Source of the DNA: Escherichia phage dhaeg
Length of the DNA stretch: 64,000 nucleotides
Reading direction: 5' to 3' (one strand)
Sequence record: MN850609.1
A program made the translations under genes and the position numbers. The notes below the pieces were generated by a model, which did no database searches, was not told the origin of the DNA, and was given only the letters and a program-made list of their open reading frames with translations. This document shows, one piece after another, positions 23,135 through 32,696 of the stretch; within the stretch, counting starts at the first letter, position 1; every line of letters starts with the position of its first letter.

Positions 23135-24001
23135 TTATTTTTCAGGAGGGACGTAAACTAAGTCTTTCCTTTCTAAGATGTAGCCATTTCTCGACTCTTG
23201 TATCTCTACTTCAGGATACTTAGACAAAAGGTCGGCTACTTTTTGTAACTCACATTTATACTTGTATGGGCTGTTGTTTATATCCAAAGTCCAATCTTCT
23301 CCCAATCTAACGGCTTCTCTTATTTCGTCCCATACCCACCAACCTATCCACATATACGATTCATTTCTTCCACCGCCATAGGGTAAATAAGCATTAAGGT
23401 CGTTATCATATATGAAAGGGCACTGCAATACATCATCCCTAGGTTTTATTTCAACTAAAAGTTCTTCAGAAGCAGGGATATATGCTCCTTCGCAGGTCGC
23501 TATAGATTTTAATGTATAATCTCCAAATTTATCAGGGTCGTCTATTAATATATCAATATCTTCGTCTTTAGATAATTCTACTCCATCTCTATACCATCTA
23601 CAAATTCTTTCGGCATAAGTGGGTTCCACTCTACACGACGGGCGAAGTGAAACTGTTTCTCCTATATTGGCATATATTAATTCCCTAGAGTTTATATCTA
23701 GGACTATTCTTCTTGGAAGGGTACCTATTTCAAGTTCTATTTCGTTACTCTTTGTTATTTCACCACTTTTCTTATTTGTTATGGTCGCATAAAATGTTCC
23801 TGCCGCCGGGAATCCTACTTCCCATAAATTTAATTCAAAAGGGTCTTCGGTAGGAAGTTGTGGAATATGGACATCGTTTTTATACCAATTAATTTCTACG
23901 TCATCTAGAGTAGAACCGGGTGGTAATACAAACCCGGTATAAAAGGTTACTGTCCTGCCAACCAATTCATATCTAGGACCATTTATTTTAAGTACAATCA
24001 T
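23135..24001 (-). CDS. second Hoc-like decoration protein (two Ig-like domains plus shared C-terminal module)
   Basis: 288 aa; Ig-like segments with WYKND / WYRDG motifs; C-terminal YMWIGWWVWDEI...DW...YPEVEIQESRNGYIL parallels the 21449 ORF; strong AAGGAGG SD. Confidence 0.7.
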   Translation of the reverse strand: MIVLKINGPRYELVGRTVTFYTGFVLPPGSTLDDVEINWYKNDVHIPQLPTEDPFELNLWEVGFPAAGTFYATITNKKSGEITKSNEIELEIGTLPRRIVLDINSRELIYANIGETVSLRPSCRVEPTYAERICRWYRDGVELSKDEDIDILIDDPDKFGDYTLKSIATCEGAYIPASEELLVEIKPRDDVLQCPFIYDNDLNAYLPYGGGRNESYMWIGWWVWDEIREAVRLGEDWTLDINNSPYKYKCELQKVADLLSKYPEVEIQESRNGYILERKDLVYVPPEK

Positions 24002-24010
24002 TTAACCTCC

Positions 24011-25516
24011 TTAAAACGTGCTCATATTGGTATGGTCTTCGACAGAAAATAAAACTTCAACAGGGATATCTGTAGTCGTATTAAGAGGGCCGCCTACAAT
24101 AAACACAGATACAGTGTAGTATTTTCTAGTATCACGGTCAAATATTTCGTAACGGTTAAATTGTCTTGCACTAGAATAAGCCAAATCGTCGAATAATTCA
24201 GGAGATGATGACCACAACACATTACTCCAGTTGGCACATTCTATTCCGTTTTCATAGTTGGTAAATCTTTTAATATCAAGCCTATTAGTAAGACCTGCAT
24301 TAGTAGCCCTTATATGGATGCCTACAGATGAGTACATGCGAACATGAAGAACCATATTAAGGTCCCACAAACGTATTTCCTTCCACTCTGAAGTGTTCAG
24401 AGGCTTATCAAATCTTAAAGAGCCTTTCCAATATCTAGGTGGATAGAATGGGAAAAGTTTATCATATAAAGATTTTAATTGAGACTGGGTTAAAGAATCG
24501 ACATCAAATACTGCATCTTTGCCTGGCGCACCTGCAGGACCTATAGGACCTTGAATACCTTGTGGCCCGGGTTCACCCTTTTCACCTTTAGGACCTGGGT
24601 CGCCTTGCGGTCCTTGGGCACCTTGCTCTCCAGGTGCACCATCTTCTCCGGGATTTCCTGGACGCCCTTCTTTTACAAATAAATTCCAATAATCGGCCCA
24701 CAGGTCTCCACTCCCAGGATAACTATCATTATTTGCTATATTATCCTGGATACAAATCCAAGAAGACCCTTCGCACTGGACCAAATCGTTTATATAATAA
24801 GACGAACCAAGGGCCCAGTTTCCGGCCCAGATAAACCCATTACCATCTTGGCCTGGCGCGCCTTGTGGACCTTGAGGGCCGGTTGGGCCTGTTGGTCCTT
24901 GAGGACCTGGTGCACCGATATTAGCCAATAGTGCCCAAACTCCTTCGCTAGGAGGTATTGTTCCTGTATTAGAACTGATGCAAAAATAAGAAGCTCCCTG
25001 GTATCCAACTGCATCGTCTTTAGAGTATTGGGTAGATTCATCCCAGGCTCCCTTCCACACCAAACCTGCCGGGCCTATAGGACCTTGTGGTCCTTGCGGT
25101 CCTACTTCTCCTTGGGCCCCTTGTAAACCCTGAGGGCCTTCTTTTCCTGGTGAACCCGGGTCTCCTTTAGGACCTTCTGGACCTGCTGGTCCTGGTTCGC
25201 CCTTTTCTCCTTTAGGACCGGGGTTACCTTGAATACCTTGCGGCCCTGGGTCTCCTTTAGGGCCTTGTGGACCTTCAGTACCAGGTGTTAGCATCTCATT
25301 AGTTATACCTAAATGGGCCAACGCGCCTTCCCTAGAAGCTTGTTTTATAAATTCAAGTCCATAGCTTTGAGAAGAATCTAGCATAGTAGGGTCTAAGGTG
25401 CTTTCACTAGTGAGTATGTCCACAAATTCCAATGATTTGTTCTGTGGAACTTCTACTAATGATACGCCTCTAAAGTGGCCTCTACCATCATGCCCGTATA
25501 ATGGATTGTCTGACAT
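24011..25516 (-). CDS. collagen-like protein with two CBM5/12-like aromatic modules and a C-terminal globular domain
   Basis: 501 aa; three blocks of uninterrupted Gly-X-Y triplets ([13 protein letters not shown]...) separated by two ~45-aa modules fitting AW-x5-Y-x3-D-x-V-x-Y-x-G-x2-Y-x-C...W; AGGAGA SD; 10 nt upstream of the 23135 ORF. Confidence 0.8.
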
Positions 25517-25912: not shown

Positions 25913-26920
25913 ATGTTCAAGAAATATAGCAGTCTGGAAAACCACTACAACAGTAAGTTTATCGAAAAACTCCGTACCAATGGTTTGACTGGTGGTGAAT
26001 GGGTAGCACGTGAGAAGATTCATGGAACCAACTTTAGTTTAATCATAGAACGTGACGCAGTCACATGCGCCAAGCGCACTGGCCCAATTCTCCCTGCTGA
26101 AGATTTCTATGGTTATGAAATTGTACTTAAGAACTACGCTGATTCTATTAAATCTATACAAGATATTATGGAAACTTCAGCAGCCGTATCTTATCAAGTT
26201 TTCGGTGAATTCGCTGGAACAGGCATTCAGAAGAACGTTGATTACGGTGATAAAGATTTTTATGTATTTGACATTATTGTTACCACCGAAAGCGGCGATG
26301 TGACTTATGTCGACGATTATATGATGGAATCATTTTGTAAGACGTTCAAATTTAAAATGGCACCACTTTTAGGTCGTGGTAAATTTGAAGACCTTATTAA
26401 ATTGCCAAATGATTTAGATTCCGTCCTTCCTGATTATAATTTTACAGTAGATAATGTCGGGCTAGCCGAAGCTAATGCTCATGTGTGGAATGCCGAAGCA
26501 AAAGGCGAAGTATTTACCGCTGAAGGGTACGTATTAAAACCTTGTTATCCGCTTTGGCTGCCTAATGGAAATCGTGTAGCAATTAAATGCAAGAACTCTA
26601 AATTCAGCGAGAAGAAAAAAACTGATAAGCCTATTAAAGTTGCAGTAGTATTATCCCAAGACGATTTAGATTTATTACAACAATTCACAGATTATGTGAC
26701 TGTTAACCGTATTAACAACGTTATCAGTAAGATTGGTGAAGTATCACCTAAAGATTTTGGAAAGGTAATGGGACTGACGGTCCAAGATATTTTGGAAGAG
26801 GCAGCCCGCGAAGAATTAGAATTAACCGATGCAGAAAACCCTGTTGAAGTTAAAAAGCAGCTTATTGAGTGCGTTAAAGATACGCTACGAGCTGTATGGA
26901 TTGAATTAGTATCCAAATAA
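25913..26920 (+). CDS. rnlB: RNA ligase 2 (Rnl2)
   Basis: 335 aa; nucleotidyltransferase motif [10 protein letters not shown] (KxHGxN); long colinear match to remembered T4 Rnl2. Confidence 0.92.
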
Positions 26921-26925
26921 ACAAT

Positions 26926-26947
26926 AAAGGGACCTTACGGTCCCTTT
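26926..26947. terminator. bidirectional terminator aaagggacc-ttac-ggtcccttt between rnlB and the gene 24 paralogue
   Basis: 9-bp stem; T tract downstream on the plus strand and on the minus strand; overlaps the gene 24 paralogue stop codon. Confidence 0.7.
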
Positions 26948-28227
26948 TATTTTTCTAGTGGTGGAAGTTTAACACCGAGATAAGAACTCAACTGGCTTTG
27001 GTTAGCCATTTTGTCCATATCAGAACCATCAATAATGCGGGCTTCTTTATCGTCCTTAGCGACGGTATAAGGGTTTGCAGTCAATGCATAACGAGCAAGC
27101 AATGCTACTGTAGGTTGTAAGCTTTCTGGGTCAACAATAACCTTAAATTCACCTACTGAAGTATCACCTTCTTCATCAACCACATCCAAACCTTCCGTAT
27201 AAGGCGCATAATATAAAGATGCGACCGTCTGTCCTTCACCCATCTGAGCATTTACACCAACAATAACATAATCACATGGACTATTCATATCGGCATAAAG
27301 AGGTAGACCATTCTTTAATACACCATAAGCCAATTCATCTTGGTCTTCCTTTTTCTCAACCCAACCGGATGCAGCGAGAATAGCAGCACAACGAGAACTA
27401 GCTACGGCATAAGTCCCAGCGAAAGAAGTTTGACGTTGGACGGCAGAGTTCATCTCACACATGTAATAATATAATGTACGAGCACGGTCCTGGGCATTAT
27501 CATAACGTGGGTTAGTAAGGTCCAATACGCCCTTTTCAGAAACACCCTGGACTTTAAAACGAGAACTCACTGTAATTAATGACTGTAATACGTCCTTATT
27601 AATTTCTTCTGCCATTTGAATGCCTAGCAGATTTTCAATGAAATTAGGAGCATTAAACCCGTTTGATTCTAGGTCTTGGGCTAATTCGACTGTCAATGAA
27701 GTTTTCAGTTTACGTGATTTAACTTCAGATTGCCATTTGTCAATACGGAAGCCTGCTTCAGCAATTTCAGGATGGCCTTGTTCGAATTTAGAAGTAATAG
27801 CAGCATCTGATACCATACGAATATGCCCAGCGGCCACTGCTTCAGAAATAACTTCACCGAGGTCGGTTTCCGTGGTTCCGGCGAAAGGAGATGCTTCTAG
27901 AACTTTAAACACTACACTTTCAAACTGGAACATATCGCCGGCTGCATAAGCTGTAGACGAATCGGTAAATTCAGGAATATTTTCACGTTCCGACATACCA
28001 ATCTGGCCTGCAAATGTAGCGCCACCAAGATAAGTCATTTTGTCGTCAGGGTTAAGTACACGAACCCCGTACAGAGCAGCAACAGGTTGGCTTGTTTTTT
28101 GTTCAGCAACTAGGGCTTTAAAGATTCGTTTATTAGTTGCTTGGGTGTATGAAAGAAGAGCAGGACGGCCAACCGAGTTGGCAGCCGTCAATGTGGATTC
28201 TTTAATTAGGTCTATAATCTTAGACAT
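26947..28227 (-). CDS. capsid vertex protein gp24 paralogue (divergent second copy)
   Basis: 426 aa; colinear with the adjacent gp24 at roughly half identity by eye (SVGRPALL.. vs SLGRPNLV.., conserved LKTxLTVELAQDLESNGF, ANPYTVAKDDKEARIIDG); 1-nt TAATG overlap. Confidence 0.85.
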   Translation of the reverse strand: MSKIIDLIKESTLTAANSVGRPALLSYTQATNKRIFKALVAEQKTSQPVAALYGVRVLNPDDKMTYLGGATFAGQIGMSERENIPEFTDSSTAYAAGDMFQFESVVFKVLEASPFAGTTETDLGEVISEAVAAGHIRMVSDAAITSKFEQGHPEIAEAGFRIDKWQSEVKSRKLKTSLTVELAQDLESNGFNAPNFIENLLGIQMAEEINKDVLQSLITVSSRFKVQGVSEKGVLDLTNPRYDNAQDRARTLYYYMCEMNSAVQRQTSFAGTYAVASSRCAAILAASGWVEKKEDQDELAYGVLKNGLPLYADMNSPCDYVIVGVNAQMGEGQTVASLYYAPYTEGLDVVDEEGDTSVGEFKVIVDPESLQPTVALLARYALTANPYTVAKDDKEARIIDGSDMDKMANQSQLSSYLGVKLPPLEK

Positions 28228-29510
28228 TAATCAGCCTCGTAAATAATTGCTGGAAGTTTAACACCAAGCAGATAAGACATATTACTCTGACCAGCCATTA
28301 AATCCATATTGGTTGCATCGATAACACGAGCTTCTTTATCGTCTTTAGCTACGGTGTACGGGTTAGCGGACAGTGCATAACGAACCATCAGAGAAATAGA
28401 AGGCTGTAATGAATCCGGGTCGACAATAACCTTATAAGCACCAACGTGTTCTTGGTCGTCTAAATCCAGGCCTTCTGTATATGGGGCATAGAAAATAGAA
28501 CCGACAACTTCATTACCACCATAGTTCTCTTTAACACCTACGATAACATAATCCAATGGGCTGTTAACGTCACAGAACAGAGGTAATCCATTCAACAAAT
28601 AACCATAGGCCGTTTCTGGGAGCCAATTATTATCTTCAGGTCTATGTTTTAACCAGCCAGAACCTGCAAGCATTGCAGCCACACGACTTGAAGCCACAAC
28701 AAACGTACCCGAATAAGAAGTAGTTTTCTGGATTTCAGAATTCATCTCACAAACAATTTCATAAAGTTTACGTGCAGATTCTGGAGCACTATCATAAGTC
28801 AAATCGATGATGCCATTATCAGATACACCCGTAACTTTATAGCGTTTGGATACGGTTATTAGAGATTGCAGAACATCTTTATTAATTTCATCTGCCATTA
28901 CTGTAGCCAGGAGGTCTTCTAAGAATGCAGGGGCGTCGAAGCCATTTGATTCCATATCCTGTGCTAATTCTACGGTCAAAGCAGTCTTCAATTTACGGGT
29001 CTTAACAGGGGCATTCCATTTATTAACCTGGAATACAGCATCAGAGATTTCTACATCACTCTCTTCAAATTTAGTGGTATGGGCTGCATCAGGAACCAAA
29101 CGACACGTTAATGACACCAAACCTTCTTGAAGAGCATCGGCCAATTCTGTAGCGCTAGTGGATGCGAGTGGGCTTGCTTGAAGAGCCTTATAAACCACAT
29201 TCTGATACTTAAAGTAGTCACCCTTGGCAATCGCCTGGGCTTTATCTGTGAGTTCCGGGATAGTTTCACGGTCTTTAGAACCAACTTCACCACCATAAAC
29301 TGCACCGGTTTGGAAACTGAATTCATTATCAGGGGTAAGATATTTGACACCATACAACGCAGCGATAGGTTGGTTTGTACGTTGTTCAGCGATGATATCG
29401 CGATAAATTAGTTTAGTGGTAGCACGGGTCAAAGCAACAAGATTAGGGCGACCCAATGAGTTGCTGGTAGTAGTTGTTGACTCGCGCAGTAATTCGTTAA
29501 TCTTTGCCAT
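28227..29510 (-). CDS. 24: capsid vertex protein gp24
   Basis: 427 aa; MAKINELLRESTTT...SIFYAPYTEGLDLDD...LGVKLP closely matches remembered T4 gp24; LRE near the N-terminus consistent with gp21 processing. Confidence 0.92.
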   Translation of the reverse strand: MAKINELLRESTTTTSNSLGRPNLVALTRATTKLIYRDIIAEQRTNQPIAALYGVKYLTPDNEFSFQTGAVYGGEVGSKDRETIPELTDKAQAIAKGDYFKYQNVVYKALQASPLASTSATELADALQEGLVSLTCRLVPDAAHTTKFEESDVEISDAVFQVNKWNAPVKTRKLKTALTVELAQDMESNGFDAPAFLEDLLATVMADEINKDVLQSLITVSKRYKVTGVSDNGIIDLTYDSAPESARKLYEIVCEMNSEIQKTTSYSGTFVVASSRVAAMLAGSGWLKHRPEDNNWLPETAYGYLLNGLPLFCDVNSPLDYVIVGVKENYGGNEVVGSIFYAPYTEGLDLDDQEHVGAYKVIVDPDSLQPSISLMVRYALSANPYTVAKDDKEARVIDATNMDLMAGQSNMSYLLGVKLPAIIYEAD

Positions 29511-29538
29511 TGCGCTTTCCTTATTGAGGGTATATGTT

Positions 29539-29546
29539 TATTTATA
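29539..29546 (-). promoter_or_regulatory. late promoter TATAAATA for gene 24
   Basis: Reverse complement of tatttata about 29 nt upstream of the gene 24 ATG. Confidence 0.6.
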
Positions 29547-29598
29547 AAAGTTGTTTACAGCAAGGTTCCCACGTGTTACTATAGTACAGAAACAAGAA

Positions 29599-29618
29599 TG
29601 GGAGACCGAAGTCTCCCA
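29599..29618 (-). terminator. hairpin tgggagac-NNNN-gtctccca after gene 23
   Basis: 8-bp stem 16 nt past the gene 23 stop; T-rich on the minus strand after the stem. Confidence 0.6.
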
Positions 29619-29633
29619 TAATAAGGTTAGGTC

Positions 29634-31193
29634 TTAGATACCTTTAACATAAACGCGACGGAAGTAACCATTCAGACCGAGGCTGTTAACGATGTCCGGC
29701 ATACCATTCTGAATACGTTTGGTAGGTGCCTGAGCAGCTGGGTCAGCGAACGGGTTAATACCGATACCGTAACGAGTTTTGAAGCCCATTACCGGCTGGA
29801 AGTTCTTCGGATCGGAACCGCGCAGTGGGGTCAGTGCAACGTAAGGGGCGTAGTAGATACCTGCGTCCATTTCGTTGGAACCTTTATAACCGATGGTGAA
29901 GTAATCAGCACGGGCATACTGGTCGATGTAAACGCGATATTTACCACCAAGAACACCGGCAAATACTGCTTTAGTGGTGTCAACGTTGAAACCTTGACCC
30001 AGACCTTGAGCTGCATAACTTACAGAAGTATCAACTGCAGCCAGTACGTTAACTACGTTACGGGAAGCGATGATGAAGTTACCAGCACCACGACCGGTCT
30101 GACGAGCGATTTCGGCTGCTTCTTTATCAATCTGGAACAGAAGGGCTTTAAAGCTCTCACCGGCCCAACGAGCACCACGGATATCGATCGGGTCCTGGAA
30201 GTCAAACACACCAGCTTTAGCGCCAACGGTGTTGGTCATACCAGATTTACCAACCTGTGCAGAGTAGTTAATCCAATCAATAACTTCACGGTTGATTTCG
30301 AGCATAATTTCGGTAGCAAGGATACCGGACAGTTCAGCATCTGCATCCATACCGTGTACTGCACGAAGGTCCTGTGCCAGTTCGATGGAGTAACTTGCTT
30401 TCAGCTGACGGGATTTAGCTTCGATAACTTGTTTATCGATACGGAAGCCCATTTCGTTCCACGGGTTGTCCTGAGAACCGTTAAAGCCTTCCTGAAGTTC
30501 AGCGATAGAAGTAGCCATACCTTCAGCCAATTCAGCCAGCTGACCAGCTTCCAACAGAGAGGTTACGGCAACATCCAGTTTAGCAGCATCGGTAGCAGCA
30601 GCATCAACGGTTACGGCTTCAACAGCCTGGAAGTGTGCAGAACCGGTAGCTTCGAAGAAGTGAGAATAAATTTTACCAACTTCCAGAACTTTACCTGCAG
30701 CCAGTGCTTCAAAAGTCTGAGCAGCACCCTGACCAGAGAACATAGCATTCGGAGCATACATCGGGTGGAAAGCTTCTTTAGCGCCAGCAGCGATAGGGTC
30801 TTTACCGTATACTGCGCGCAGTGCAAATACCTGGCCGGTAGGGTTATTCAGAGGCTGAACACCACAAATATCAAAAGCAATCAGATGAGGAATAGCACGA
30901 CGAACCATACCCATTACTGCCGGCCCAATCTGAGTTACAGCACCAGAGGTCTGGCCAGCTGCGATATTGGTAGCATCATAACCGTGGTCACCACCGATTT
31001 CAGCTTCAGTCAGGAAAGAACCAAATGCTTCGGAGATTTTTTCGTCACGATATTCAGGAGCGGTCAGAATATCTTGTTCCTGGTTTTCAAAGATTTTAGC
31101 GATGATAGCTTGTTTAGAAGCACCAACGATTTCAGGAAGAGCTTCGTTTTCCAGCAGAGCGGACCATTTTTGTACTAATGCATTCTTTTTCAT
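29634..31193 (-). CDS. 23: major capsid protein gp23
   Basis: 519 aa; long near-identical stretches to remembered T4 gp23 (AIIAKIFENQE..., GDHGY.ATNIAAGQTSGAVTQIGPAVMGMVRRAIP, ...FRRVYVKGI). Confidence 0.97.
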   Translation of the reverse strand: MKKNALVQKWSALLENEALPEIVGASKQAIIAKIFENQEQDILTAPEYRDEKISEAFGSFLTEAEIGGDHGYDATNIAAGQTSGAVTQIGPAVMGMVRRAIPHLIAFDICGVQPLNNPTGQVFALRAVYGKDPIAAGAKEAFHPMYAPNAMFSGQGAAQTFEALAAGKVLEVGKIYSHFFEATGSAHFQAVEAVTVDAAATDAAKLDVAVTSLLEAGQLAELAEGMATSIAELQEGFNGSQDNPWNEMGFRIDKQVIEAKSRQLKASYSIELAQDLRAVHGMDADAELSGILATEIMLEINREVIDWINYSAQVGKSGMTNTVGAKAGVFDFQDPIDIRGARWAGESFKALLFQIDKEAAEIARQTGRGAGNFIIASRNVVNVLAAVDTSVSYAAQGLGQGFNVDTTKAVFAGVLGGKYRVYIDQYARADYFTIGYKGSNEMDAGIYYAPYVALTPLRGSDPKNFQPVMGFKTRYGIGINPFADPAAQAPTKRIQNGMPDIVNSLGLNGYFRRVYVKGI

Positions 31194-32057: not shown

Positions 32058-32065
32058 TATTTATA
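32058..32065 (-). promoter_or_regulatory. late promoter TATAAATA for gene 22, overlapping the gene 21 stop
   Basis: Reverse complement of tatttata about 28 nt upstream of the gene 22 ATG. Confidence 0.55.
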
Positions 32066-32696
32066 ACGCTTTTTTCATGGCCTCTGCGAGAGCCATAAAG
32101 GCGTCATCGGCACTGGTATCGGTATCTACCGTTTGTGATTCTGTAATTTGTTTAGGAGTTACATAAGCATCAGGAGCAGATGGACCCCATACTGCATCAA
32201 CACCGACGGTTAATTTATAACCTTCGTTTACACGCTTATATCCTTTATTGGTTTCAGTTAAAGAACCTAGACCACGAGAACTAACACCAGGCACCCAACC
32301 GGCTCTAATATTAGCAGCTAGTTTATCACCAGGACCATGGTCGCCTTCAATAATACGAGCACGTCCATAAACGTCATTACCTTTCCACCACATATCTTCA
32401 ATAATAATAGCGGCTTGCATAGGGTCGACGTTAGCACGAGGCGGATGATTTAATTCTCCTAAAGCTTGTTTAGTAGCAACCTGTTCTGCCATATAATCAG
32501 CAACAGCTTTTTCCAAAATAGGTTTTGGATAAAGGCGTTTATTACGGTTAACCACTTCGGCTTGCATGAATATGCCTTCTATATAAAGGCCCGGGGCAAG
32601 TCCAGAATCTTTTCCATCATGAGATTCCAACATCGGAACCCCATCGATAATTTCACCTGGTTGTCCCCAATGTTCGATGAGCAATTCAGGTTTCAT
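32061..32696 (-). CDS. 21: prohead protease gp21
   Basis: 211 aa (T4 gp21 about 212); position 68-21-22. Confidence 0.88.
   Translation of the reverse strand: MKPELLIEHWGQPGEIIDGVPMLESHDGKDSGLAPGLYIEGIFMQAEVVNRNKRLYPKPILEKAVADYMAEQVATKQALGELNHPPRANVDPMQAAIIIEDMWWKGNDVYGRARIIEGDHGPGDKLAANIRAGWVPGVSSRGLGSLTETNKGYKRVNEGYKLTVGVDAVWGPSAPDAYVTPKQITESQTVDTDTSADDAFMALAEAMKKAL

What the first reader, a model, noticed from the sequence alone, without database searches (positions are those of the whole stretch)
26947..29510. Tandem, translationally coupled gp24 vertex-protein paralogues
Two ~427-aa gp24-type genes sit head-to-tail with a 1-nt TAATG overlap. The upstream copy is nearly T4-like; the downstream copy is colinear but clearly divergent. 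T4 is remembered to have a single gp24 at 11 of 12 vertices, so a second copy implies mixed or alternative vertex composition, or a paralogue recruited to another role. A bidirectional terminator overlaps the second copy's stop codon.
Basis: partly seen in the sequence, partly recalled or inferred. Interest (0 to 1): 0.55.

Follow-up and report, generated by a model that had tools for sequence, protein, structure and literature searches.

The report
Two tandem T4-type capsid vertex genes
This T4-like coliphage carries two intact, co-expressed genes for the protein that caps the corners of its head; the pair is already annotated in public records, but it is old, widespread and conserved, and what the second copy does has not been studied.

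Summary
On the minus strand, gene 23 is followed by two full-length gp24 genes: 24A (28227-29510, 427 aa) and 24B (26947-28227, 426 aa). They are joined by a TAATG overlap and end at a bidirectional hairpin shared with the convergent rnlB gene.

The window is 99.9% identical to Escherichia phage dhabil (Dhakavirus). That record already annotates both genes, and JS98 has called them 24a/24b.

- **Identities:** the copies are 56% identical to each other. 24A is 71% identical to T4 gp24, not "nearly T4-like"; 24B is 57%.
- **Both look functional:** dN/dS is about 0.05 for each. There is one late promoter, a Shine-Dalgarno site for 24B inside the end of 24A, and a conserved prohead-protease motif in both.
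- **Not a recent duplicate:** 24B belongs to a separate clade that always sits directly after an A-type gene, in at least five genera plus uncultured contigs (about 116 of 1418 phage records).
- **Co-inheritance:** A and B distances track each other (Mantel r = 0.92). Single-copy phages, T4 included, nest among two-copy A genes, which suggests T4 lost B.

Most likely both proteins build head vertices and B is a specialised form. This was not tested, and I found no proteomic or structural data. The feature is known; interest is modest.

The parts
29634..31193 (-). Gene 23, major capsid protein (519 aa). It lies immediately upstream of the pair.
   Evidence: ORF. Pfam PF07068 at E 2.2e-122. Annotated as major head protein in the dhabil record.
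29598..29619 (-). Terminator-like hairpin after gene 23 (ATGGGAGAC-TTCG-GTCTCCCAT followed by a T-rich tail).
   Evidence: Hairpins at the same position in CF-SP2, P545 and CIP9.
29539..29546 (-). T4-type late promoter motif TATAAATA, ending 28 nt upstream of the 24A start codon. It is the only such motif near the pair.
   Evidence: no TATAAATA on either strand between 20749 and 29538, so none inside 24A or 24B. The same motif sits at the same place in JS98, VR5, VR26, CF-SP2, P545, CIP9, L018, L021 and L023.
29516..29522 (-). Shine-Dalgarno region AAGGAAA for 24A.
   Evidence: Read from the sequence. Conserved as AAGGAAAGCGCAATG in the relatives.
28227..29510 (-). Gene 24A, 427 aa. It is the orthologue of T4 gp24 (70.8% identity) and the canonical vertex protein.
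   Evidence: It groups with T4, Mosigvirus, Karamvirus and Moonvirus gp24 at 100% bootstrap.
29481..29510 (-). Predicted 10-residue propeptide of 24A (MAKINELLRE|S), identical to the T4 gp24 propeptide that the prohead protease gp21 removes.
   Evidence: Alignment. Removal of the first 10 residues of T4 gp24 is stated in PMC9958956. Cleavage in this phage is inferred, not shown.
28235..28238 (-). Shine-Dalgarno GAGG for 24B, embedded in the last codons of 24A, with 7 nt between it and the ATG.
   Evidence: GAGG is kept in JS98, VR5, VR26, CF-SP2 and CIP9, and is weaker (GAG) in P545.
28225..28229 (-). TAATG stop/start overlap joining 24A and 24B (shared base 28227).
   Evidence: The equivalent junctions in relatives are TAATG, TAAATG, TAATATG or ATGA.
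26947..28227 (-). Gene 24B, 426 aa. It is a divergent gp24 paralogue: 56% identical to 24A and 56.6% to T4 gp24.
   Evidence: It belongs to a separate clade with 100% bootstrap. dN/dS is about 0.05.
28198..28227 (-). Predicted 10-residue propeptide of 24B (MSKIIDLIKE|S), which keeps the L/I-x-E|S motif.
   Evidence: The motif is kept in all 12 B-type sequences examined. Cleavage is inferred.
26926..26947 (.). Bidirectional intrinsic-terminator hairpin shared by 24B (minus strand) and rnlB (plus strand). It overlaps the first plus-strand base of 24B's stop codon.
   Evidence: scores it on both strands (9 pairs, 5 of them G-C, with T-rich tails). A hairpin directly after the B stop codon is present in every relative read.
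25913..26920 (+). rnlB (RNA ligase 2), convergent with the pair. It is the same right-hand neighbour as in T4.
   Evidence: Pfam RNA_ligase plus T4_Rnl2_C. T4 gene order.

Best explanation
The window holds the late head-gene block 23-24A-24B of a Dhakavirus, essentially Escherichia phage dhabil.

24A is the orthologue of T4 gp24. 24B is an old out-paralogue of gp24, not a recent copy of 24A.

**Expression (read from the sequence; function inferred).** The two genes form one late transcription unit. A single TATAAATA promoter lies upstream of 24A, and a shared hairpin terminator follows 24B. 24B is translated by ribosomes that terminate or re-initiate at the TAATG overlap, helped by a GAGG site inside the end of 24A. 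Both proteins should therefore be made together, late in infection, in comparable amounts.

**Role (inferred).** Both keep the full gp24 architecture and the L/I-x-E|S site where the prohead protease removes 10 residues from T4 gp24. I therefore infer that both enter the prohead and are matured like gp24, and that both end up at fivefold vertices of the head. 24A would be the canonical vertex protein. 24B would be a specialised one whose fixed, derived changes cluster in residues 25-57. From memory I place that stretch in the N-arm, the part that contacts neighbouring subunits after head expansion.

**Not determined.** I cannot say whether B forms its own pentamers at a subset of the 11 vertices or mixes with A.

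**Origin (inferred from trees).** The A/B split predates the radiation of the T4, Mosigvirus, Karamvirus, Moonvirus and Dhakavirus gp24 lineages. The pair has been co-inherited since then. Single-gene phages such as T4 most likely lost B.
For: **Identity of the locus**
- 99.9% identical to dhabil over 2851 nt.
- Both genes are annotated in that record.

**Both copies are functional**
- Intact ORFs in all 12 two-copy genomes or contigs examined.
- dN/dS is 0.04-0.08 for A and 0.02-0.08 for B among Dhakavirus and Gaprivervirus.

**Co-expression**
- The only TATAAATA near the pair is at 29539-29546.
- There is no intergenic space between A and B. Junctions in the relatives are TAATG, TAAATG, TAATATG or ATGA.
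- A terminator follows directly after B.

**gp24 family membership**
- Pfam PF07068.
- PDB sequence search: gp24 chains at E 1e-152 to 1e-199 against gp23 chains at about 1e-11.
- The structural model of B matches T4 gp24 chains best: 5vf3_a at E 4e-36 against gp23 chains at about 1e-12.

**Protease motif**
- Kept in all A and B sequences.
- T4 facts are taken from PMC9958956.

**Age and co-inheritance**
- The B clade has 100% bootstrap. A groups with T4, Mosigvirus, Karamvirus, Moonvirus and 04086 at 100%, excluding B.
- Quartet sites: 21.8 for (A,T4)|(B,outgroup) against 7.7 and 7.7 for the two alternatives. Two indels agree.
- Within-genome A-B identity is 54.5-57.5% in all 12 genomes. Mantel r = 0.92, with 0 of 5000 permutations as high.
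- Synonymous sites between A and B are saturated, and the longest exact nucleotide match is 15 nt, so there is no sign of gene conversion.
- Two-copy contig L018 has an A gene sister to the T4/Karamvirus clade at 100%.

**Specialisation of B**
- There are 16 fixed A/B differences. In 14 of them the single-copy outgroups share A's residue, and 7 lie in residues 25-57.
- The N-terminal 60-80 residues are where B departs most from every other gp24.
Against: - There is no direct evidence that 24B is in virions, is cleaved, or forms pentamers. I found no proteomics, mutant or structure for any two-copy phage. Ten search calls (nine ran) and two T4-head reviews gave nothing.
- T4 and most relatives build the same prolate head with one gp24, so a second vertex protein is not structurally required.
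- The trees are neighbour-joining on simple corrected distances, not maximum likelihood. The position of B relative to Jiaodavirus, Tegunavirus, Acinetobacter-phage and Winklervirus gp24 is unresolved (bootstrap 32-56%).
- Single-copy status was checked only for T4, JS09, EnC07, 04086 and Merlin among the members of the A super-clade (and, outside it, for the comparison phages phiKp_22, X20, phiP4-3, Makalu_002 and leB). It was not checked for EcS1, 4S, PM2 or PEi20.
- FBB1's two genes were linked by their source name only. Their adjacency was not checked.
- The structural model is mediocre (mean pLDDT 62). The N-arm, where the derived changes lie, is modelled below pLDDT 50.
- The domain assignment of residues 25-57 rests on my memory of the T4 structure, not on a test.
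Confidence: 0.6

Rival explanations
1. Recent, lineage-specific tandem duplication of gene 24 in Dhakavirus, with the downstream copy diverging quickly afterwards. This is the reading implied by describing the upstream copy as T4-like and the downstream copy as divergent.
For: The genes are tandem, head to tail, colinear and of similar length.
Against: - A groups with T4, Mosigvirus, Karamvirus and 04086 at 100% bootstrap, excluding B.
- Sites supporting (A,B) are no more frequent than sites supporting (B,T4): 7.7 against 7.7, compared with 21.8 for (A,T4).
- B shares two indel states with the outgroups, not with A.
- The same A/B pair, at the same 54.5-57.5% identity, occurs in five named genera and in uncultured contigs.
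Confidence: 0.02
2. 24B is a xenologue. A gp24 gene from a distant T4-like lineage was inserted behind the resident gene 24 by recombination. It then spread among phages by homologous exchange of the 23-24-rnlB region. On this view it is not an ancient duplication followed by losses.
For: - B branches outside the A/T4 super-clade, near Jiaodavirus or Acinetobacter-phage gp24 with weak support.
- Jiaodavirus gp24 is B-like in its middle part, which shows that this gene can look mosaic.
- On the gp23 tree the two-copy genera are not a supported clade.
- T4-like genomes are known to be mosaic (my own general knowledge).
Against: - A and B distance matrices are tightly correlated (r = 0.92).
- The deepest split, FBB1 type against the rest, is the same on both sides. 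Repeated independent transfer of B alone would not predict this.
- No lineage was found with a B-type gene as its only gp24: six loci from four B-type proteins, plus every named two-copy phage.
Confidence: 0.2
3. 24B is no longer a vertex building block. It is expressed late and may enter the prohead, but it serves another role. Examples would be an assembly or protease-triggering factor, a transient prohead component, or a decoy for a host defence that senses capsid proteins.
For: - B carries derived substitutions at positions otherwise invariant in gp24: L34R, Y57V, P244Q, E335Q and a GDT insertion.
- T4 needs only one gp24.
- In T4, attachment of gp24 is thought to trigger protease activation (PMC9958956), so a regulatory sub-role is conceivable.
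Against: - B keeps full length, all conserved core motifs (146 columns are at least 90% conserved and identical in both clades) and the maturation site.
- At deep divergence it is as conserved as A, or more so, as expected for a lattice component.
- There is no added domain and no loss of any domain.
Confidence: 0.12
4. Simple redundancy or dosage. The two genes are interchangeable and the second only raises the supply of vertex protein or acts as a spare.
For: Same operon, same family, and translational coupling.
Against: - Interchangeable copies are expected to be homogenised or lost. Here they stay 56% identical without gene conversion.
- Each has its own fixed residues, and both are under strong purifying selection over a long time.
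- Only 55 gp24 subunits are needed per T4 head (11 pentamers; PMC9958956), so supply is unlikely to be limiting.
Confidence: 0.06

Closest known systems
Bacteriophage T4 gp24 (capsid vertex protein; PDB 1YUE, 5VF3 chain a)
   Same: - Same family and length. 24A is 70.8% identical and 24B 56.6%.
- Same genomic slot between gene 23 and the convergent rnlB.
- Same late promoter motif.
- The 10-residue propeptide is identical in 24A, and the L/I-x-E|S motif is kept in 24B.
   Different: - T4 has one gene and this phage has two.
- 24B differs from every single-copy gp24 at otherwise invariant positions, mostly in residues 25-57.
- 24B also has a 3-residue insertion (GDT, residues 354-356), a 2-residue insertion (Asn239-Pro240 in 24B) plus one residue (Arg241) that the outgroups also have but 24A and T4 lack, and lacks a 4-residue loop segment present in T4 and 24A.
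Genes 24a/24b of Escherichia phage JS98 (EF469154), and "capsid vertex protein I/II" of VR5, VR26, JS10 and IME08
   Same: They are direct orthologues. 24A is 95% and 24B 91% identical to the JS98 pair. The order, promoter, junction and terminator are the same. This is the same feature, already annotated.
   Different: - The junction is TAATG here (1-nt overlap) and TAAATG in JS98, VR5 and VR26 (no overlap).
- The window lacks the small opposite-strand ORF found between gene 23 and 24a in JS98 and VR5.
- Naming is inconsistent. The dhabil record calls the downstream gene "capsid vertex protein I".
The gp23/gp24 paralogy itself (gp24 is thought to derive from gene 23 by duplication; byp24 mutations let gp23 replace gp24)
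   Same: The process is the same, repeated one step further. A capsid-shell gene is duplicated in tandem and one copy becomes specialised for a sub-position in the lattice (PMC9958956, PMC10580926).
   Different: - gp23 and gp24 share about 20-25% identity and have known, distinct positions: hexamers and pentamers.
- A and B share 56% identity, and their positions are unknown.

Membership tests
T4 gp24 capsid vertex protein family | Full-length sequence homology to gp24, closer to gp24 than to gp23 | tested here: met
   24A and 24B match T4 gp24 chains at E 1.5e-199 and 4.2e-152 over residues 1-424 and 1-423, against about 1e-11 for gp23 chains. Identities are 70.8% and 56.6%.
T4 gp24 capsid vertex protein family | Pfam PF07068 (Gp23 / HK97-like T4 shell protein) above the gathering score | tested here: met
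   330.7 and 326.8 bits against a cut-off of 24.4, covering profile positions 2-376 of 376. PHROG 138 also matches.
T4 gp24 capsid vertex protein family | Position in the late head-gene block, directly after gene 23 and before the convergent rnlB | tested here: met
   The order 21-22-23-24A-24B with convergent rnlB is seen. T4 has 24 followed by convergent rnlB.
T4 gp24 capsid vertex protein family | Late expression from a TATAAATA promoter | tested here: met
   The motif at 29539-29546 ends 28 nt upstream of the 24A start codon and is conserved in relatives. Only the sequence motif was tested. Transcription itself was not testable here.
T4 gp24 capsid vertex protein family | N-terminal 10-residue propeptide removed by prohead protease gp21 at L/I-x-E| | tested here: met
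   The motif is present in 24A (LLRE|S, identical to T4) and 24B (LIKE|S), and in all 12 B-type sequences. The protease gene is present at 32061-32696 (Peptidase_S77). Actual cleavage was not testable.
T4 gp24 capsid vertex protein family | HK97-like fold with the gp24-type insertion domain | tested here: inconclusive
   The AlphaFold model of 24B has mean pLDDT 61.8 and pTM 0.63. Its best PDB matches are T4 gp24 chains (5vf3_a E 4e-36, 1yue E 1.2e-27), ahead of gp23, but TM-scores are only about 0.48 because the arms and loops are poorly modelled. Given 57% sequence identity to 1YUE, the fold is not in real doubt.
T4 gp24 capsid vertex protein family | Forms pentamers at the 11 non-portal vertices of the mature head | not testable with these tools
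   This needs virion proteomics or cryo-EM of a two-copy phage. None was found in the PDB or in the paper library.
Recent in-lineage tandem duplicate (in-paralogues) | The two copies are each other's closest relatives | tested here: not met
   A groups with T4, Mosigvirus, Karamvirus, Moonvirus and 04086 at 100% bootstrap, excluding B. There is no excess of (A,B) sites.
Decaying duplicate / pseudogene | Frameshifts, stop codons, truncation or relaxed selection in one copy | tested here: not met
   Both ORFs are intact in all 12 genomes or contigs. dN/dS is 0.02-0.08 for B.
Translationally coupled gene pair | Stop/start overlap or abutment, a ribosome-binding site inside the upstream gene, and no intervening promoter | tested here: met
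   TAATG at 28225-28229 and GAGG at 28235-28238, with no TATAAATA inside 24A. Junctions are equally tight in all 9 other pairs whose junctions were read. No special RNA structure at the junction (z = -0.49). Coupling itself is inferred.
Bidirectional intrinsic terminator | G+C-rich hairpin flanked by T-runs on both strands, between convergent genes | tested here: met
   The hairpin at 26926-26947 scores on both strands. A hairpin follows the B stop codon in every relative read. Termination activity was not testable.

The most novel reading that the evidence does not exclude
The two vertex proteins are not interchangeable. They occupy different classes of fivefold positions in the prolate head, for example the single apex opposite the portal against the ten shoulder vertices, or the portal-proximal ring against the distal ring. 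On this reading the ancestral T4-type head used two vertex proteins and T4 simplified to one. It would make the two-copy phages a natural system for asking how a prolate capsid tells non-equivalent vertices apart.
Probability: 0.15. Interest if true: 0.65.

Novelty: already known. Interest (0 to 1): 0.3.

Why it matters
T4 is the reference model for prolate head assembly, and its textbook description has one vertex protein. About 8% of the gp24-bearing phage genomes in the collection I searched (roughly 116 of 1418) carry a second, strongly conserved vertex-type gene wired to be made with the first. The T4-head reviews and the open-access papers I could search do not mention it.

If both proteins are in the head, these phages offer a direct test of how vertex proteins specialise, one step beyond the gp23-to-gp24 split. 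If the loss scenario is right, T4's single gp24 is a simplification rather than the original state.

The practical value is small. The pair is already annotated but named inconsistently, so annotators should distinguish the A and B types.

Tried and rejected
**Literature**
- Ten search calls (one rejected for a too-short term, so nine ran) and targeted reading turned up no discussion, proteomics or structure of the second gp24. The reading covered two T4-head reviews, the dhabil isolation paper, the Petrov 2010 genome review and a gp24-bypass stability study.
- The JS98 genome paper (Zuber 2007) and Fokine 2005 are not held. I therefore could not check what those authors said, and I could not take domain boundaries from the source.

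**Sequence tests that gave nothing**
- Gene conversion between A and B: none detected.
- An internal late promoter for 24B: none.
- RNA structure at the junction that might gate translation: not different from shuffled sequence (z = -0.49).
- A chimeric origin for T4's single gene, with an A-type 5' part and a B-type 3' part as unequal crossing-over would give: no support, because T4, Karamvirus, Moonvirus and 04086 are A-like along the whole length.

**Weak or uninformative analyses**
- gp23 as a proxy for the species tree: too conserved to resolve the genera.
- Strict group-consensus informative sites: too few sites (3, 1 and 1), so I replaced them with per-quartet counts.
- Structure prediction of 24B: only a moderate model. 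It confirmed the family but could not place the derived residues.

**Not attempted**
- A possible link between having 24B and having or lacking Soc. I considered it but did not test it.
Full report

Yes. All the genes concerned are on the minus strand. Gene 23 (29634-31193, 519 aa) is followed by two ORFs, 28227-29510 (427 aa, here called 24A) and 26947-28227 (426 aa, 24B).

On the coding strand the junction reads GAGGCTGATTAATGTCT. The TAA of 24A and the ATG of 24B share base 28227.

Both proteins match Pfam PF07068 end to end. Both match solved T4 gp24 chains far better than gp23 chains. They are 56% identical to each other and colinear.

The hairpin at 26926-26947 scores as an intrinsic terminator on both strands. 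It lies between 24B and the convergent RNA ligase 2 gene rnlB (25913-26920, plus strand). Its last stem base is the first plus-strand base of 24B's stop codon.

One description is too strong. 24A is 70.8% identical to T4 gp24, and 24B is 56.6%. Only the first 33 or so residues of 24A are almost the same as in T4.

**2. What genome is this, and is the pair already known?**

The region is 99.9% identical to Escherichia phage dhabil (Dhakavirus, MN850621). It is 97% identical to JS10 and 85% to JS98.

The dhabil record annotates both genes. JS98, JS10 and IME08 name them 24a and 24b. VR5 and VR26 call them capsid vertex protein I and II. So the existence of the pair is on public record.

I found no paper that discusses it. 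Ten search calls (one rejected for a too-short term, so nine ran), two reviews of the T4 head, the Petrov 2010 genome review and the dhabil isolation paper gave nothing. The JS98 genome paper is not in the held library.

**3. Expression signals**

These were read from the sequence. Their function is inferred.

- A hairpin follows gene 23 (29598-29619).
- Next comes the only T4-type late promoter motif near the pair, TATAAATA at 29539-29546, which ends 28 nt before the 24A start codon.
- There is no such motif inside 24A or 24B.
- 24B has a GAGG site (28235-28238) inside the last codons of 24A, with 7 nt between it and the ATG.
- No unusual RNA structure surrounds the junction (z = -0.49).

The same layout is found in JS98, VR5, VR26, CF-SP2, P545, CIP9 and four uncultured contigs: late promoter, A, a junction of TAATG, TAAATG, TAATATG or ATGA, B, then a hairpin. 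The upstream region of one contig, L020, could not be read. The pair therefore looks like one late operon with translational coupling.

**4. Are both copies functional?**

- Both ORFs are intact in all 12 two-copy genomes or contigs examined.
- Among Dhakavirus and Gaprivervirus, dN/dS is 0.04-0.08 for A and 0.02-0.08 for B.
- Synonymous sites between A and B are saturated (pS about 0.7).
- The longest exact nucleotide match between A and B is 15 nt, and no window suggests gene conversion.
- Both keep the motif at which the prohead protease removes the first 10 residues of T4 gp24 (PMC9958956). 24A has MAKINELLRE|S, identical to T4. 24B has MSKIIDLIKE|S. All 12 B-type proteins keep L/I-x-E|S.
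- The protease gene itself is present at 32061-32696.

**5. How widespread is it?**

A tblastn search with 24B hits 1418 phage records at 1536 places. A blastn search with the 24B gene covers at least 80% of the query in 116 records. About 8% of gp24-bearing phages in that collection therefore carry a B gene.

I confirmed the tandem A-B arrangement in five genera:
- Dhakavirus
- Gaprivervirus
- Gelderlandvirus (CF-SP2)
- Marfavirus (P545)
- Kanagawavirus (CIP9)

In the large protein database the B family runs down to about 67% identity. It includes a protein of Erwinia phage FBB1, which has a second, A-type gp24 as well. I did not check the adjacency of the two FBB1 genes.

I looked up four divergent B-type proteins from uncultured assemblies, and they returned six loci. 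In every locus the B gene lies directly after an A-type gp24 with a 1- or 4-nt overlap, downstream of gene 23. I found no case of a B-type gene as the only gp24.

**6. How old is the split?**

*Trees.* Neighbour-joining trees with bootstrap put all B proteins in one clade (100%). They put all A proteins together with the single gp24 of T4, Mosigvirus, Karamvirus, Moonvirus and phage 04086 in another (100%), excluding B.

*Quartet sites.* Per-quartet counts give 21.8 sites for (A,T4)|(B,outgroup) against 7.7 and 7.7 for the two alternatives. There is no excess signal joining A to B.

*Indels.* Two indels agree. A and the T4 group share a 4-residue loop insertion, and they lack one residue that B and the outgroups have.

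A recent duplication followed by rapid divergence is therefore rejected, within the limits of distance methods.

*Co-inheritance.* Across 12 two-copy genomes, within-genome A-B identity is constant at 54.5-57.5%. A-A and B-B distances are tightly correlated (Mantel r = 0.92, 0 of 5000 permutations as high). The deepest split, FBB1 type against the rest, is the same on both sides.

*Nesting of single-copy phages.* The single-copy phages I verified are T4, JS09, EnC07, Merlin and 04086. They are nested among the A genes of two-copy genomes. The A gene of uncultured contig L018 is sister to the Karamvirus/Moonvirus/T4/Mosigvirus clade at 100%.

*Simplest reading.* One ancient duplication or acquisition was followed by co-inheritance of the pair and at least two independent losses of B, one of them on the line leading to T4.

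*Alternative.* Lateral spread of B by homologous exchange of this region cannot be excluded. The gp23 tree does not resolve the genera. The position of B relative to Jiaodavirus, Tegunavirus, Winklervirus and Acinetobacter-phage gp24 is unresolved (32-56% bootstrap).

**7. What distinguishes B?**

Sixteen alignment columns are at least 90% fixed within each clade but differ between B and the A super-clade. At 14 of these the single-copy outgroups carry A's residue, so B is the derived state.

Seven of the 16 lie in residues 25-57: V25L, A26S, T32N, L34R, Y36F, K56R and Y57V. Others are P244Q, E335Q and a 3-residue insertion (GDT).

In sliding windows, the first 60-80 residues are where B departs most from every other gp24, at about 46-56% identity. 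Other gp24 proteins are 71-86% identical to the A-type copies there, apart from the Acinetobacter phage W16, which is 56-66%.

In T4 the N-terminal regions of gp23* and gp24* move to the outer surface on expansion and form arms that bind neighbouring subunits (PMC9958956). That residues 25-57 belong to this arm is my recollection of the structure, not something I could test. The AlphaFold model of 24B is poor exactly there: pLDDT is below 50 for residues 1-58, and the mean is 61.8. The model's best structural matches are T4 gp24 chains, ahead of gp23.

At deep divergence B is more conserved than A. Between dhabil and FBB1, A is 63% identical and B is 70%.

**8. Most likely mechanism**

- **Shown:** two intact, selected gp24-family genes; shared late-promoter, coupling and terminator signals; conserved maturation motifs; ancient and co-inherited paralogy.
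- **Inferred:** both proteins are made together late in infection, enter the prohead, lose 10 residues to gp21 and sit at fivefold vertices. A would be the canonical protein and B a specialised one with altered neighbour contacts.
- **Unknown:** the stoichiometry; whether B forms its own pentamers at a subset of the 11 vertices or mixes with A; and what advantage it gives.

I put 0.6 on this explanation. Its main weakness is that no data place B in virions, and T4 shows that one vertex protein suffices.

Rivals:
- B has left the vertex role (0.12).
- The copies are simply redundant or provide dosage (0.06).
- The duplication is recent (0.02).
- On origin rather than function, B arrived as a xenologue and spread by exchange (0.2).

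**9. Comparison with what is known, and verdict**

Both genes pass every sequence-level test for the gp24 family. The defining structural property, pentamers at vertices, could not be tested.

The feature is the same as JS98 24a/24b and is already annotated in this phage, so I file it as already known.

What I did not find stated anywhere is the evolutionary picture:
- B is an old, distinct clade.
- B always follows an A gene.
- The pair is co-inherited.
- B was probably lost in T4.
- B's derived changes concentrate at the N-terminus.

These results are modestly interesting and point to a simple experiment, virion mass spectrometry or cryo-EM of any two-copy phage. Interest is 0.3.

The most novel reading still open is that the two proteins mark different vertex classes of the prolate head and that T4 is a simplified descendant. 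I give that a probability of about 0.15.

Noticed in passing
window 24011-25516 (-): A 501-aa ORF with collagen triple-helix repeats (Pfam Collagen, 4 stretches, E 8.6e-24) and two CBM_5_12 carbohydrate-binding modules. It sits between the rnlB/DUF2774 genes and a hoc-like gene and has the same orientation as the late genes. The dhabil record calls it hypothetical. The VR26 record notes similarity to a VR7 collagen-repeat protein. It could be a capsid or fibre decoration protein.
   Followed up: partly
window 23135-24001 (-), and dhabil locus L002 650-2062 (+): The dhabil record annotates two separate "head outer capsid protein" (Hoc-like) genes near the vertex pair, on opposite strands. The 288-aa one in the window gives only a weak Ig_2 match (E 0.007).
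   Followed up: no
window 29511-29633, compared with L003 5809-6075 and L004 5306-5572: JS98, JS10, VR5 and many other relatives carry a small ORF of about 270 nt on the opposite strand between gene 23 and 24A (orf173). The window and dhabil lack it, which is why many megablast hits come in two pieces. IME08 and IME341 also have a homing endonuclease (annotated segD in IME08) annotated under the match.
   Followed up: no
L008 3501-4781 (Klebsiella phage phiKp_22, Jiaodavirus): The single gp24 of Jiaodavirus is equally distant from A and B (63% each). It looks mosaic in sliding windows: the N- and C-terminal parts are A-like, and the middle (alignment columns about 121-320) is B-like. This could reflect ancestral states or past recombination between A- and B-type genes.
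   Followed up: partly
L013 (Escherichia phage 04086, OR842557): This record is labelled Dhakavirus but has a single gp24, only 68% identical to 24A, and no B gene. It branches outside the Dhakavirus-type A clade. The record has few annotated features for its length (148 in 177 kb). Either the taxonomy label is loose or this lineage lost B.
   Followed up: partly
window, whole length: TATAAATA occurs 18 times against 8.6 expected (0 of 100 shuffles reach 18). Eleven of the sites lie on the minus strand between 29.5 and 50 kb, as expected for a block of T4-type late genes.
   Followed up: no
PQ561418.1 (phage Ec2-ASingh, 63,988 bp record): An unannotated record of nearly the same length as the window encodes a 24B protein 100% identical to the window's. 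Over the 2851-nt region it is 97.3% identical in two pieces, so it carries the insertion between gene 23 and 24A.
   Followed up: no
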